Source: Candidatus Aenigmatarchaeota archaeon
Lineage (GTDB): Archaea > Aenigmatarchaeota > Aenigmatarchaeia > QMZP01 > QMZT01
Assembly: GCA_963726265.1 (NCBI GenBank)
Contig: CAVSBQ010000002.1
Location: forward strand, 6,486 to 70,485
Length of the DNA stretch: 64,000 bases
Direction: 5' to 3'
The first letter of the stretch is position 1, and the number at the start of each line of letters is the position of its first letter. The notes under the pieces were generated by a model that was not told the origin of the DNA, did no database searches, and worked only from the letters and a program-made list of their open reading frames with translations. This document shows, piece after piece, positions 4,017 to 5,172 of this stretch. A program made the translations under genes and the position numbers.

Positions 4017-4808
4017 ATGATGAACAAGAAATTGCTGTTGCTGATTTCTGTGACCGTTGTAATAGTAGCGGGAATGCTTCTCACACCATCGGATGAAAGC
4101 TACGCCATGGTGAGATACGTCCTGAACGGCGTCGGGCTCACGCTCATTCCTTTCATCGGGGCGTGGATCGGCCTCGAGGCCGTGAAGTTTTTCAGTTTCA
4201 AGAGCGCATTCGGCAAGGCCCTGTTCTTCATATCGCTCGGCGTGATAACGTACGGCCTTGGCACTATCGTGTTCTTTTACTACAACATGTTTTTGCAGAC
4301 GGAGATTCCGTATCCTTGCCTGGGGGACATAGGTTTTGCCGCCACCGTAATCCTGGCGAACTACGGCATGTTCCTGCTGCTGAAAGGCATCAAGATGAAA
4401 TTCGATGCCATTACGGTCGCCAAGCTGCTAATATTGCCGATAATCATTTTCGCGATAGTCTTTCCGGTTTTCATTTATGAAAAAGCCGTGGAGGAAGCGC
4501 CCCTCCTGACCAAGTTTTTCAACGTCTATTATGTTGTTGGCGATGCAGTATTCCTGTCCTTTGCCCTGCTCATACTCAGCCTTTCATATGGCAGCATCCT
4601 TTTCAGGTCGGTCAGCGTGCTCAGCGCGGGCTTCATCCTGGAGGCCCTGGCTGACTTCTCGTTCTCGTACACCGCCAGCGCGGGGATTTATTACACCAGC
4701 TGCTGGGTCGACGTGCTCTACTGCCTGGCGTTCTTCGTCATAGGATACGGCATGTATTTCTTCCTGTCCCGCAACAGGGCAGCAGCCGCGCCGGAAAAAG
4801 CAAAATAG
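4017..4808 (+). CDS. polytopic integral membrane protein, function unknown
   Basis: Intact 263-aa ORF with about 7-8 hydrophobic segments. No family was recognised. Confidence 0.7.
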   Translation: MMNKKLLLLISVTVVIVAGMLLTPSDESYAMVRYVLNGVGLTLIPFIGAWIGLEAVKFFSFKSAFGKALFFISLGVITYGLGTIVFFYYNMFLQTEIPYPCLGDIGFAATVILANYGMFLLLKGIKMKFDAITVAKLLILPIIIFAIVFPVFIYEKAVEEAPLLTKFFNVYYVVGDAVFLSFALLILSLSYGSILFRSVSVLSAGFILEALADFSFSYTASAGIYYTSCWVDVLYCLAFFVIGYGMYFFLSRNRAAAAPEKAK

Positions 4809-4870
4809 CTCCACCTGTTTCCGGGACGAATTTCTGGAATTAGAGAAATTTCGGAATGAAAAAAAGGGAA

Positions 4871-5108
4871 CGCCGGGAACAGGATTCGAACCTGTGTGGG
4901 CTTGCGCAAGCGCAAGCATCCGCATGACGCACGCTTCGCGCGCGTCGGTCTGCTTAAGCCTTTTTCGCCCACCGGATCTCCCGAAGGATTGCTGGGGTTG
5001 CTCCTCATGTTCCGCCGATCAGAGTCAAGCCATGAAGTCATCGCGCCACAAGGGCGCTCGTAAGATCCAGTTCTCAAGTCCGGCGCGTTACCGCTCCGCC
5101 ATCCCGGC
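4871..5108 (-). tRNA. tRNA-Ser(UGA), class II, with two insertions (putative introns); no encoded CCA
   Basis: On the reverse strand the acceptor GCCGGGA pairs with TCCCGGC. The D arm is GCG/GAGCGGTAA/CGC. The anticodon stem is CCGGA/TCCGG with loop CUUGAGA. The T arm is ACAGG-TTCGAAT-CCTGT and the discriminator is G. The two anticodon-stem halves are separated by ~95 nt (4977-5071). The variable-arm stem TGGGC/GCCCA encloses ~65 nt (4902-4966). Confidence 0.8.
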
Positions 5109-5172
5109 GTAATTCTAATTAATGTCTGTTCTGTTTAAATATATGCTTTCGCCGCCTGCCGGCTTTAAGAAA

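What the first reader, a model, noticed from the sequence alone, without database searches (positions are those of the whole stretch)
4871..5108. 238-nt tRNA-Ser(UGA) locus with two insertions: ~95 nt at the anticodon loop and ~65 nt inside the variable arm
All mature tRNA elements can be read (acceptor, D arm, anticodon UGA, long variable-arm stem TGGGC/GCCCA, T arm), but they are interrupted twice. The first insertion is at or near the canonical 37/38 site (4977-5071). The second sits in the variable-arm loop (4902-4966) and contains strong GC hairpins, for example GCTTGCGC-tt-GCGCAAGC. Multiple and non-canonically placed tRNA introns are known in some archaeal lineages. A long intron in the variable arm of a class II tRNA is unusual and would need a broad-specificity splicing endonuclease.
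Basis: partly seen in the sequence, partly recalled or inferred. Interest (0 to 1): 0.6.

Follow-up and report, generated by a model that had tools for sequence, protein, structure and literature searches.

The report
Twice-interrupted serine tRNA gene with guide RNA
This is a real serine-tRNA gene of a tiny DPANN archaeon that is interrupted twice, in the anticodon loop and in the loop of the long variable arm; the first interruption also appears to carry a conserved, rearranged methylation-guide RNA aimed at the tRNA itself and at the ribosome's decoding site.

Summary
Window 4871-5108 (minus strand) is the only tRNA-Ser(UGA) gene found in a 1.13-Mb Aenigmatarchaeota-like genome.

- **Two inserts.** A 95-nt intron sits at the canonical 37/38 site (4978-5072). 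A 61-nt intron sits in the variable-arm loop (4902-4962). Removing both gives an 82-nt RNA that ARAGORN calls tRNA-Ser(UGA).
- **Comparative support.** Sister genomes without the second insert carry exactly the predicted arm, UGGGC-GAAA-GCCC.
- **Splice motifs.** Both junctions fit bulge-helix-bulge motifs. Compensatory changes support the variable-arm motif.
- **Machinery.** The genome encodes a full-length three-unit (epsilon2) broad-specificity splicing endonuclease and RtcB ligase.

Its lengths were slightly off, and variable-region introns are already known.

The first intron also looks like a box C/D guide RNA.
- It has a K-turn whose stem covaries in 33 orthologues.
- A 12-nt guide gives 10 Watson-Crick pairs with 16S rRNA and places A1408 at the target position.
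- A second guide pairs with the unspliced pre-tRNA and places U39 at the target position, the same tRNA position as in the Haloferax tRNA-Trp intron.
- Box order is circularly permuted relative to more distant relatives.

No RNA data could be obtained, so splicing and methylation are inferred.

The parts
4871..5108 (-). tRNA-Ser(UGA) gene, 238 nt, three exons and two introns
   Evidence: Rfam tRNA 39.1 bits. ARAGORN -i calls Ser(tga). The spliced product is called tRNA-Ser(tga) by default ARAGORN.
5073..5108 (-). Exon 1 (36 nt): acceptor 5' half, D arm, anticodon stem 5' half, C32-G37 with anticodon UGA at 5074-5076
   Evidence: Read from the sequence. Conserved in orthologues.
4978..5072 (-). 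Intron 1, 95 nt, at canonical position 37/38. The BHB has h = anticodon stem (5 bp), H = C32-G35 paired with CGGG (4980-4983), and bulges AG|A and AG|A.
   Evidence: In 39 orthologues h is 5/5 in all. H is 4/4 in 30 and 3/4 in 9, with H3 varying between CAAG, CAGG, CGGG, CGAG and AAAG.
5062..5072 (-). Putative D guide AACUGGAUCUU. It pairs with A36/i-2 ... U44 of the unspliced pre-tRNA, and the fifth nucleotide upstream of box D faces U39.
   Evidence: 9-11 contiguous pairs in nearly all of the 33 orthologues tabulated (8 in two). Guide N+3 covaries with the last intron nucleotide, and N+7 covaries with nt 41.
5058..5061 (-). Box D-like ACGA (consensus A-N-G-A); its GA abuts stem I
   Evidence: Table of orthologues.
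5043..5057 (-). Stem I hairpin GCGCC-CUUGU-GGCGC, the canonical stem of a K-turn closed by a loop
   Evidence: 33 orthologues carry 32 distinct stems. Mean 5.6 contiguous pairs starting at the GA/NNU boundary, against 1.4 in 2000 shuffles (maximum 2.5).
5035..5041 (-). Box C-like AUGACUU (consensus RUGAYUU), preceded by the 3-nt K-turn bulge
5023..5034 (-). D' guide CAUGGCUUGACU, 12 nt. It makes 10 Watson-Crick pairs with 16S rRNA GUCAAGCCAU (E. coli G1405-U1414), with N+5 = A1408.
   Evidence: A compensatory change is seen in family f5 (16S U to A, guide A to U). The same target site is predicted for sRNAs of S. acidocaldarius and N. equitans (PMC4644070).
5019..5022 (-). Box D' CUGA
   Evidence: Conserved as C[U/G/C]GA.
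5009..5018 (-). D'-C' spacer UCGGCGGAAC with the invariant GGCGG
   Evidence: Its role is unknown. It could pair with 16S C1399-C1403 (CUGCC), which is inference only.
5002..5008 (-). Box C' AUGAGGA
   Evidence: Conserved as AUGA[G/A/U/C]GA. Its fifth base co-varies with the second base of D' (U.G, U-A, C-G, G-C, U.U, G.A), read.
4963..4977 (-). Exon 2 (15 nt) AUCCGGUGGGCGAAA: A38, anticodon stem 3' half, U44, variable-arm 5' strand and loop
   Evidence: Identical to intron-less orthologues L007, L013 and L015.
4902..4962 (-). Intron 2, 61 nt, in the variable-arm loop. BHB: H = GCGA (4965-4968) with GCGC (3 pairs plus A.G), bulges AA|A and AA|G, h = GG/CC, h' = AGGC/GCUU.
   Evidence: The same register holds in 13 non-redundant orthologues (47 of 52 H pairs). 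It is the best of 63 registers tested. H covaries between GCGA/UCGY, GCAU/AUGC and GUGC/GUGC.
4871..4901 (-). Exon 3 (31 nt): variable-arm 3' strand GCCC, AC, T arm, acceptor 3' half, G73; no encoded CCA
5133..5144 (-). A/T box ATATATTTAAAC about 25-36 nt upstream of the tRNA 5' end (promoter-like). It is followed by the conserved leader TTAATTAGAATTAC.
   Evidence: Read from the sequence. The same arrangement occurs in orthologues L002-L005. The promoter role is inferred.
4859..4865 (-). T7 run 6 nt after the discriminator base (terminator-like)
   Evidence: Read from the sequence. The terminator role is inferred.

Best explanation
The locus is the single, functional tRNA-Ser(UGA) gene of an Aenigmatarchaeota-type DPANN archaeon. 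It is transcribed as a precursor of about 240 nt with two protein-spliced (bulge-helix-bulge) introns.

Intron 1 (95 nt, position 37/38) and intron 2 (61 nt, in the variable-arm loop after GGGC-GAA-A) are cut by the genome's three-unit epsilon2 splicing endonuclease. The exons are joined by RtcB. The product is an 82-nt class II tRNA whose variable arm is U-GGGC-GAAA-GCCC-AC.

Intron 1 is in addition a box C/D guide RNA in circularly permuted order: D guide, box D, closed stem I, box C, D' guide, box D', box C'. With L7Ae, Nop5 and fibrillarin, its D guide would direct 2'-O-methylation of U39 on the unspliced pre-tRNA. Its D' guide would direct methylation of 16S rRNA A1408 (E. coli numbering).

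What is shown: gene anatomy, conservation, covariation, and presence of the enzymes.
What is inferred: splicing itself, circularisation, and both methylations.
My confidence is about 0.85 for the two-intron functional gene and about 0.6 for the guide-RNA function; the single figure given (0.7) is for the statement as a whole.
For: Gene and introns
- Rfam tRNA hit of 39.1 bits. The spliced 82-mer is called tRNA-Ser(tga).
- Intron-less orthologues L007, L013 and L015 have UGGGCGAAAGCCC[A/U]C, identical to the predicted splice product.
- The in-genome Ser(CGA) tRNA has UGGGC-AUCC-GCCCGC.
- Intron 1 BHB: h is 5/5 in 39 orthologues, H is 4/4 in 30 of them, and H3 varies.
- Intron 2 BHB: a fixed register gives 47/52 pairs, the best of 63 registers, with compensatory changes.
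- This is the only Ser(UGA) gene in the assembly.
- A conserved upstream A/T box and a T7 run flank the gene.

Enzymes
- EndA of 398 aa is a full-length match to 4FZ2, E = 2.6e-108. In the printed alignment the residues at the positions of Y236, H251 and K282, and of the loop Lys K161, are identical.
- RtcB is present.

Guide RNA
- K-turn stem covariation: 5.6 contiguous pairs against 1.4 in shuffles.
- The D' guide is exactly 12 nt and forms 10 Watson-Crick pairs at N+2..N+11 with 16S.
- A compensatory 16S/guide change is seen in family f5.
- The same 16S site is predicted as an sRNA target in two other archaea (PMC4644070).
- The D guide pairs with the pre-tRNA 3' junction, with covariation that includes the last intron base.
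- The target position U39 is the same as for the Haloferax tRNA-Trp intron (PMC7714728).
- Fibrillarin, Nop5 and L7Ae are encoded.
- The guide core is single-copy in 66 of 301 genomes sampled across the phylum, with 0 hits to the reversed control. It lies inside the tRNA-Ser(UGA) intron in every case inspected.
Against:
- In the window's own copy the central helix of the intron-2 BHB has an A.G mismatch. The BHB conformer is 8 kcal/mol above the minimum-energy fold (-29.3 against -37.3).
- The outer helix h' of intron 1 is weak or not adjacent in most orthologues.
- Boxes C (AUGACUU) and D (ACGA) depart from the RUGAUGA/CUGA consensus, and the box order is not the standard one.
- Two genomes (G012, G021) have degenerate D' guides while their 16S is unchanged.
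- The 16S/guide compensatory change may be a single evolutionary event, and one f5 genome (G060) lacks it.
- Rfam has no matching sRNA family; the best is sno_ncR4 at 19.6 bits, E = 0.14.
- The assembly is 88% complete, so a second Ser(UGA) gene cannot be strictly excluded.
Confidence: 0.7

Rival explanations
1. The conserved core of intron 1 is not a methylation guide. It is an L7Ae-binding K-turn or other structural element that helps folding, splicing order or stability of the precursor. On this view the complementarities to U39 and to 16S have no catalytic consequence.
For: - Boxes C and D are off-consensus, and the box order is non-standard.
- The helix between the intron 5' end and the 3' junction could simply be an alternative precursor fold.
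- D' guides are degenerate in G012 and G021.
- The invariant GGCGG in the spacer is not explained by the standard C/D model.
Against: - The D' guide is exactly 12 nt between C and D', with 10 Watson-Crick pairs at N+2..N+11 to a decoding-site sequence. The chance of any 10-mer match in about 4.5 kb of rRNA is about 0.004.
- A compensatory change in family f5 keeps the pairing.
- The same 16S site is predicted as an sRNA target elsewhere.
- The D guide puts U39 exactly at N+5.
- The full sRNP protein set is encoded.
Confidence: 0.25
2. The 61-nt variable-arm insert is not removed. It stays in the mature tRNA as a giant expansion of the variable arm.
For: - No spliced RNA has been observed.
- The minimum-energy fold keeps the UGGGC/GCCCA stem and stacks further helices on it.
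- The BHB conformer is 8 kcal/mol less stable in the window's copy.
Against: - A BHB register is conserved in 13 non-redundant orthologues, with compensatory changes, and is the best of 63 registers.
- Outside the motif the insert sequence is free to vary.
- Presence and absence alternate within genera while the mature arm stays UGGGC-GAAA-GCCC.
- The arm length of the other Ser tRNAs in the genome is 15 nt.
- A broad-specificity endonuclease is present.
Confidence: 0.07
3. There is a single 147-nt intron at 37/38 (ARAGORN's parse). The anticodon stem 3' half would be UGCGG, and the hairpin GCUUGCGC-UU-GCGCAAGC would be the variable arm.
For: ARAGORN -i reports exactly this.
Against: - It needs a G.G mismatch in the anticodon stem, while a perfect UCCGG lies upstream.
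- Orthologues without the second insert read AUCCGG-UGGGCGAAAGCCC directly.
- An 8-bp, 2-nt-loop variable arm matches no relative.
Confidence: 0.03
4. The locus is a decaying tRNA pseudogene or the remnant of mobile-element insertions, and is no longer expressed.
For: - Default tRNA finders miss it.
- Intron 2 shares a hairpin module with other loci.
Against: - Exons are conserved across about 50 inspected genomes, with compensatory changes in the stems.
- It is the sole decoder for UCA (and UCG by wobble) found in the assembly.
- Promoter-like and terminator-like signals are conserved.
Confidence: 0.03

Closest known systems
Multi-intron tRNA genes of Candidatus Micrarchaeum acidiphilum ARMAN-2 with epsilon2 EndA (Fujishima et al. 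2011, PMC3239211; Hirata et al. 2012, PDB 4FZ2)
   Same: - DPANN archaeon of about 1 Mb.
- More than half of the tRNA genes are interrupted.
- Introns at non-canonical positions with strict or relaxed BHB motifs.
- A single three-unit endonuclease of about 390 aa with the catalytic triad and the specificity-loop lysine.
   Different: - A different phylum by record titles (Aenigmatarchaeota). The EndA is 45-50% identical to Micrarchaeota homologues.
- The ARMAN-2 paper shows T-loop introns and a 37/38 intron, not a variable-arm intron.
- No intron-borne guide RNA is reported there.
Box C/D guide RNA in the tRNA-Trp intron of Haloferax volcanii and other Euryarchaeota (Clouet d'Orval 2001; Singh 2004; summarised in PMC7714728 and PMC7994747)
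   Same: - A canonical 37/38 intron carries C, D', C' and D boxes.
- One guide pairs with the 3' exon of the unspliced precursor and targets U39.
- The guide duplex and the BHB are mutually exclusive folds.
- The excised intron is expected to be circular.
   Different: - The host tRNA is Ser(UGA), not Trp.
- The second guide targets 16S rRNA (A1408) rather than C34 of the tRNA.
- Box order is circularly permuted: D guide and D lie upstream of a closed stem I and C.
- More distant relatives (L160, L162) keep the same core in the standard order.
- Boxes are off-consensus (AUGACUU, ANGA).
- Nothing has been tested experimentally here.
Variable-loop or variable-region tRNA introns (Kjems et al. 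1989, Thermofilum pendens, cited in PMC3978253; class II variable-arm insertions in Asgard archaea, preprint 10.64898/2026.10.13.758758)
   Same: [quoted passage not shown]
   Different: - Here it sits in the apical loop of the long arm of a class II tRNA.
- It occupies one fixed site across an order.
- Its presence is patchy, alternating even within genera.
- I could not read the 1989 paper, so its exact position and tRNA class come only from its title.
C/D box sRNAs predicted to target 16S position A1408 (E. coli numbering) in Sulfolobus acidocaldarius and Nanoarchaeum equitans (Dennis et al. 2015, PMC4644070)
   Same: The same predicted target nucleotide in helix 44 of the decoding site.
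   Different: As far as the passage read states, those sRNAs are not described as intron-borne. Sequence relatedness to this intron was not tested.

Membership tests
Archaeal endonuclease-spliced (BHB) tRNA intron | Two 3-nt bulges separated by a 4-bp helix, flanked by helices (hBHBh'), or an accepted relaxed form, with the cuts in the bulges | tested here: met
   - Intron 1: h is 5 bp, H is 4 bp (CUUG/CGGG), bulges are AG|A and AG|A, and h' is weak, so the form is relaxed.
- Intron 2: h is 2 bp, H is 3 pairs plus A.G, bulges are AA|A and AA|G, and h' is 4 bp. H has all 4 pairs in 8 of 13 non-redundant orthologues at the same register.
Archaeal endonuclease-spliced (BHB) tRNA intron | Removal restores a canonical cloverleaf | tested here: met
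   The 82-nt product is called tRNA-Ser(tga) by default ARAGORN. It equals the intron-less orthologues in the variable arm.
Archaeal endonuclease-spliced (BHB) tRNA intron | Splicing endonuclease and RNA ligase encoded by the organism | tested here: met
   EndA at G000:C2:198780-199976. RtcB at C2:662647-663915.
Archaeal endonuclease-spliced (BHB) tRNA intron | Spliced tRNA and excised or circular intron observed as RNA | not testable with these tools
Class II tRNA-Ser | Serine anticodon, long variable arm, G73 discriminator, standard arms | tested here: met
   Anticodon UGA, 15-nt variable region U-GGGC-GAAA-GCCC-AC after splicing, and G73. The layout matches Ser(CGA) and Ser(GGA) of the same genome.
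Box C/D guide sRNA | Boxes C (RUGAUGA) and D (CUGA) forming a K-turn: tandem G.A pairs, a 3-nt bulge and a flanking canonical stem | tested here: inconclusive
   The GA / NNU-GA geometry and a strongly covarying stem are present. The boxes read AUGACUU and ACGA rather than the consensus. L7Ae binding was not tested.
Box C/D guide sRNA | Internal C' and D' boxes | tested here: met
   D' is CUGA and C' is AUGAGGA. Both are conserved, and the 3b.3n position co-varies.
Box C/D guide sRNA | Guide of about 12 nt upstream of D or D', with at least 9-10 bp to rRNA or tRNA and the target at the fifth position | tested here: met
   - D' guide: 12 nt, 10 Watson-Crick pairs with 16S, N+5 = A1408.
- D guide: 9-11 pairs with the pre-tRNA in nearly all orthologues tabulated, N+5 = U39.
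Box C/D guide sRNA | Linear order 5'-C, D' guide, D', C', D guide, D-3' with a terminal stem | tested here: not met
   The order here is D guide, D, closed stem, C, D' guide, D', C'. The standard order is seen in the same intron of class-level relatives L160 and L162. I therefore say it works like a C/D sRNA and is a permuted variant, not a standard member.
Box C/D guide sRNA | sRNP proteins L7Ae, Nop5 and fibrillarin present | tested here: met
Box C/D guide sRNA | 2'-O-methylation at the predicted sites | not testable with these tools
   Needs RiboMethSeq, primer extension or mass spectrometry.
Epsilon2 (three-unit) splicing endonuclease | One polypeptide of about 390 aa with alphaN, alpha and betaC units, the catalytic Tyr-His-Lys triad, and the specificity-loop Lys | tested here: met
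   - phmmer aligns residues 16-398 to residues 16-387 of 4FZ2 (365.7 bits).
- In that alignment the residues at the positions of Y236, H251, K282 and K161 are identical. Residue numbers are from PMC6379350.
- Pfam finds the N-terminal and catalytic domains.
- Dimer formation was not tested.

The most novel reading that the evidence does not exclude
Intron 1 is a circularly permuted, intron-borne double-guide box C/D RNA. It has been kept inside the tRNA-Ser(UGA) gene across much of the phylum.
- It methylates U39 of its own unspliced precursor and A1408 of the 16S decoding site. Modification of the decoding site would then depend on a guide made only from the tRNA-Ser(UGA) precursor.
- The permuted order in this order of archaea arose from the standard order still seen in sister families. 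The route would be either re-opening of the circular excised intron or tandem duplication followed by loss.
- In family f6, ligating the intron ends would bring C' to within about 15-18 nt of box D. That suggests the circle is the working form.
Probability: 0.45. Interest if true: 0.75.

Novelty: new variant of a known kind. Interest (0 to 1): 0.6.

Why it matters
The two-intron gene itself adds one more example to the known link between broad-specificity splicing endonucleases and heavily interrupted tRNA genes. It also places that link in Aenigmatarchaeota. The papers I read list the epsilon2 enzyme only for Micrarchaeum-type archaea (PMC5829648).

Three points go further.
- **Splicing looks essential.** The only tRNA-Ser(UGA) gene found needs two excisions, so splicing appears essential for reading UCA codons in this organism.
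- **The variable-arm intron is a natural gain/loss series.** It sits at one fixed site but comes and goes between species of the same genus. This offers a way to study how such introns are gained or lost.
- **The first intron would be new if its function holds.** In the literature I could search, an intron-borne methylation guide is described only for tRNA-Trp. A guide that serves both its host tRNA and the ribosomal decoding site, in a circularly permuted gene order with the unpermuted form surviving in relatives, would be a rare traceable rearrangement of a small RNA.

All of this is directly testable with RNA from enrichment cultures, or in vitro.

Tried and rejected
- **Default ARAGORN** finds nothing. 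ARAGORN -i gives a one-intron parse, which I rejected against the orthologues.
- **D' guide aimed at the tRNA's own anticodon loop (by analogy with tRNA-Trp C34).** Rejected: GGCUUGACU has the same sense as CUUGA, not its complement. The only rRNA match is the 16S site.
- **Guide/16S covariation in G012 and G021.** Negative: the guides are degenerate and the 16S is unchanged.
- **Strict BHB search on the window's own variable-arm insert.** It found nothing. The motif appears only when one A.G mismatch is allowed, and its register was fixed from the orthologues.
- **Energy test.** The BHB conformer of intron 2 is 8 kcal/mol above the minimum.
- **Rfam at a permissive threshold.** No sRNA family matches; sno_ncR4 scores 19.6 bits and is not significant.
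- I used a pattern with one N too many, so it missed the genome's own copy. It was repeated correctly.
- **Unavailable resources.** The primary tRNA-Trp papers (PMC92551, PMC275556) are not held, so that system is cited through PMC7714728 and PMC7994747.
- **Search of earlier findings by sequence** returned nothing.
- **Not attempted.** No covariance model was built and no structure was predicted.
Full report
**1. What is at the coordinates**

Rfam's tRNA model matches window 4871-5108 on the minus strand. The score is 39.1 bits against a gathering score of 29, over model positions 1-71. ARAGORN in default mode finds no tRNA in the whole window. With introns allowed it reports tRNA-Ser(tga) at the same place.

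Read on the minus strand, the gene has these elements:
- acceptor GCCGGGA / UCCCGGC with discriminator G73;
- a D arm;
- anticodon stem CCGGA and loop CUUGAG with anticodon UGA;
- T arm ACAGG-UUCGAAU-CCUGU.

No CCA is encoded.

There are two inserts.
- The first is 95 nt. It lies between G37 and A38 (window 4978-5072, or equivalently 4977-5071 because an A is repeated).
- The second is 61 nt. It lies inside the variable-arm loop (window 4902-4962, +/-2 nt because of repeated A's).

Joining the three exons (36 + 15 + 31 nt) gives an 82-nt RNA. Default ARAGORN calls it tRNA-Ser(tga).

**2. The organism and its machinery**

The window lies in a 1.13-Mb assembly of 4 contigs, 52% G+C, about 88% complete. 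ARAGORN finds only 14 tRNA genes without introns. It finds 36 candidates when introns are allowed, some of them mis-parsed. Rfam finds 32. Interrupted tRNA genes are therefore the rule here.

The genome has one splicing-endonuclease gene (C2:198780-199976, 398 aa).
- It aligns over its whole length with PDB 4FZ2, the three-unit epsilon2 enzyme of ARMAN-2 (E = 2.6e-108).
- In that alignment the residues at the positions of Tyr236, His251 and Lys282, and of the specificity-loop Lys161, are identical. The residue numbers are from PMC6379350.
- That enzyme type was shown to cut both strict and relaxed BHB motifs (PMC3239211).

RtcB ligase is present.

The closest homologues of this EndA (up to 83% identity) are in MAGs titled Candidatus Aenigmatarchaeota. 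Micrarchaeota homologues are 45-50% identical.

**3. Comparative test of the two-intron reading**

A BLAST of the locus against 60 relatives found the gene in nearly all of them. I read about 40 orthologues from the order.

Variable arm without the insert:
- Orthologues without a variable-arm insert read AUCCGG-U-GGGC-GAAA-GCCC-(A/U)C directly (L007, L013, L015, L134).
- Others have equivalent 15-17-nt arms.
- This is exactly the product predicted for the window's gene.
- The genome's own Ser(CGA) and Ser(GGA) genes have arms of the same layout.

This rules out ARAGORN's alternative of one 147-nt intron, which needs a G.G mismatch in the anticodon stem.

Distribution of the variable-arm insert:
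- It occurs at the same site in all five genomes of the window's genus.
- It also occurs in scattered genomes of at least eight other genera, including other families.
- It is absent from congeners of several carriers.
- Its sequence varies freely outside the junction motif.

Other introns in orthologues:
- in the D loop;
- in the T loop;
- inside the anticodon stem;
- nested inside intron 1.

Some genes therefore carry three or more interruptions.

**4. Splice motifs**

Intron 1 in 39 orthologues:
- The anticodon stem (5 bp) is intact in all.
- The 4-bp central helix forms between C32-G35 and intron positions -6 to -3. It is complete in 30 and has 3 of 4 pairs in 9.
- The intron strand of that helix varies (CAAG, CAGG, CGGG, CGAG, AAAG).
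- The 3-nt bulges put the cuts after nt 37 and before nt 38.
- The outer helix h' is weak or displaced, so this is a relaxed form.

Intron 2 in 13 non-redundant orthologues (14 with L005, which duplicates L004):
- One fixed register gives a central helix made of the last two variable-stem bases plus the first two loop bases. In most copies this is GCGA, paired with UCGY just before the 3' bulge.
- Compensatory variants occur (GCAU/AUGC, GUGC/GUGC).
- Bulges are NN|N, followed by an inner helix.
- The register scores 47 of 52 possible pairs over the 13 non-redundant copies. It is the best of 63 registers tried; the next best score 41.
- In the window's own copy the helix is GCG/CGC plus an A.G mismatch, with h' = AGGC/GCUU.
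- This conformer is 8 kcal/mol above the minimum-energy fold.

**5. Is the gene used?**

- No other tRNA with a UGA anticodon was found. This holds for BLAST of the exons, for a search for intron-less UGA anticodon stem-loops next to a T loop, and for ARAGORN.
- ARAGORN's second "Ser(tga)", at C2:639849-639971, is a class I tRNA with the loop CUUAUAA, so it is Ile(UAU).
- An A/T box about 25-36 nt upstream, a conserved leader and a T7 run downstream are shared with orthologues.

**6. Intron 1 carries a box C/D-like RNA**

Positions 38-113 of the locus are conserved at 75-86% identity across the family and the order. That is unusual for an intron.

The anatomy in the window is as follows:
- 5' splice site;
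- AACUGGAUCUU (D guide);
- ACGA (box D-like);
- GCGCC-CUUGU-GGCGC (hairpin);
- GAU (bulge);
- GA-CUU (rest of box C);
- CAUGGCUUGACU (12-nt D' guide);
- CUGA (box D');
- UCGGCGGAAC (spacer);
- AUGAGGA (box C');
- a tail of 24 nt whose last six bases are the BHB strand CGGG and the two bulge bases AG.

The K-turn. The hairpin is flanked by GA on its 5' side and by NNU-GA on its 3' side, which is K-turn geometry. In 33 orthologues there are 32 different stems. The mean is 5.6 contiguous pairs starting exactly at that boundary, against 1.4 when the strands are shuffled between genomes (maximum 2.5 in 2000 shuffles).

The D' guide.
- It is perfectly complementary over 10 bases (guide positions N+2 to N+11) to 16S rRNA GUCAAGCCAU.
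- I place that sequence at E. coli G1405-U1414 by alignment with the E. coli sequence as I recall it. A1408 then falls at the fifth position.
- A given 10-mer is expected in about 4.5 kb of rRNA with a probability of about 0.004.
- The 16S site is invariant in the family.
- In family f5 the 16S has A instead of U at 1414, and seven of eight guides have U instead of A. This is a compensatory change, though possibly a single event.
- Two genomes have decayed guides.
- Dennis et al. 2015 predicted sRNA-guided methylation at the E. coli A1408 equivalent in S. acidocaldarius and N. equitans (PMC4644070).

The D guide.
- It pairs over 9-11 contiguous bases with the 3' junction of the unspliced precursor in nearly all of the 33 orthologues tabulated (8 in two). 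The paired stretch is the last two intron bases plus A38-U44.
- U39 lies opposite the fifth base upstream of box D.
- Guide position N+3 covaries with the last intron base (C:G, A:U, G:U). N+7 covaries with nt 41.
- U39 is one of the two targets of the intron-borne guide of Haloferax tRNA-Trp, which acts on the precursor (PMC7714728).

The proteins. Fibrillarin, Nop5 and L7Ae are all encoded.

**7. Distribution and the permutation**

The motif GGCUUGACUC[C/G/U]GA followed by a 2-32-nt gap and GGCGG marks a single locus in 66 of 301 genomes sampled across the phylum. Rows that list two matches are overlapping matches of the variable gap at one place. The reversed control gives 0 matches. Wherever I looked, the motif lies in the 37/38 intron of tRNA-Ser(UGA).

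In class-level relatives such as L160 and L162 the intron has the standard order: C, D' guide, D', C', D guide, D (AUGA). The BHB outer helix doubles as the terminal stem of the K-turn.

In the window's order the D guide and D lie upstream of C, and the terminal stem is closed by a loop. The cyclic order is the same, so the two forms are circular permutations of each other.

Inference:
- The permutation arose either by tandem duplication and loss, or through the circular excised intron.
- In family f6, ligating the intron ends would bring C' to within about 15-18 nt of box D.

**8. Comparison with what is known, and verdict**

Already described:
- multi-intron tRNA genes and the epsilon2 enzyme, for ARMAN-2 (PMC3239211);
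- an intron in a variable loop, in 1989 (cited in PMC3978253);
- class II variable-arm insertions, in a 2026 Asgard census.

The finding as given is therefore a sound new member of a known kind.

The intron-borne guide differs from the tRNA-Trp precedent in host tRNA, in having an rRNA target, and in box order. I could find no description of it. I rate the whole as a new variant of a known kind. Splicing and methylation remain to be shown at the RNA level.

**9. Leads from earlier notes**

Notes on other windows of this genome describe further multiply interrupted tRNA genes and an RNA end-processing neighbourhood. They agree with the genome-wide picture. I did not check them individually.

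Noticed in passing
G000:C2:198780-199976 (outside the window); loci L042-L121: Three-unit epsilon2 EndA homologues (55-83% identity) occur in dozens of MAGs titled Aenigmatarchaeota, and at 45-50% in Micrarchaeota. The papers I read state that this enzyme type was known only from Micrarchaeum/ARMAN-1/-2 and Mancarchaeum (PMC5829648).
   Followed up: partly
G000: C2:81946-81971, 167577-167602, 184215-184240, 236413-236438, 478433-478456, 483733-483760, 488579-488604, 670343-670368, 840639-840697, 916450-916475, 938176-938200, 959845-959870; C1:12796-12821: A recurrent module occurs in introns of other tRNA genes, just upstream of tRNA 5' ends, and in the rRNA operon. It is a 7-10-bp GC-rich hairpin (often GACGCnnnn...nnnnGCGUC) followed by YUUCG, often preceded by CAGACC or CAUGCC. 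Intron 2 of this locus and several orthologous variable-arm introns contain the same kind of hairpin. It could be a mobile intron core or a processing signal.
   Followed up: partly
G000:C2:81903-82120 (minus): ARAGORN labels this Glu(ctc). Read by eye it looks like tRNA-Arg(UCU), with an intron of about 126 nt at 37/38. That intron contains a UGAUGA box and ends in a near copy of the intron-2 hairpin. It may be another intron-borne sRNA.
   Followed up: no
G000:C2:~484060 (16S rRNA, minus strand) and loci L025-L039, L142-L154: All 16S genes of this order read CACACUGCCCGUC. That puts a U at the position of E. coli C1400, which I recall as almost universally C.
   Followed up: no
G000:C2:~483930-483960 (16S 3' end, minus strand): After AAGUCGUAA the 16S sequence continues GACGGUGAGAUGGGC instead of the usual CAAGGUA... 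This suggests an intron or insertion near the 3' end of the 16S gene.
   Followed up: no
Loci L008, L010 (nested insert after box D'); L129, L134-L136, L139, L140 (family f6): Some orthologues have an extra 25-60-nt element between box D' and the GGCGG spacer. In L008 and L010 it looks like an intron within the intron. In f6 it is a conserved hairpin, AACCUUCC...GGAAGG.
   Followed up: no
Loci L004, L005, L011, L012, L013, L015 (D loop); L006, L007, L013-L015, L017-L020 and others (T loop); L160, L161, L165, L168, L169 (anticodon stem): Orthologous tRNA-Ser(UGA) genes carry further introns: after GGUAA in the D loop, after GGUUCGAA in the T loop, and between the anticodon stem and loop. A single gene can have up to four or more interruptions. 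The reviews I read give three as the maximum (PMC3239211, PMC8450103).
   Followed up: partly
window 5009-5018 and all orthologues: The pentamer GGCGG in the D'-C' spacer is invariant across the phylum. It could pair with 16S C1399-C1403 (CUGCC) just upstream of the guide target, as an accessory helix. This is untested speculation.
   Followed up: no
window 4584-4925 and 4718-5077 (minus strand): Two mechanical ORFs of 113 and 119 aa overlap the tRNA gene. They are almost certainly not genes and could be mis-annotated as hypothetical proteins.
   Followed up: no
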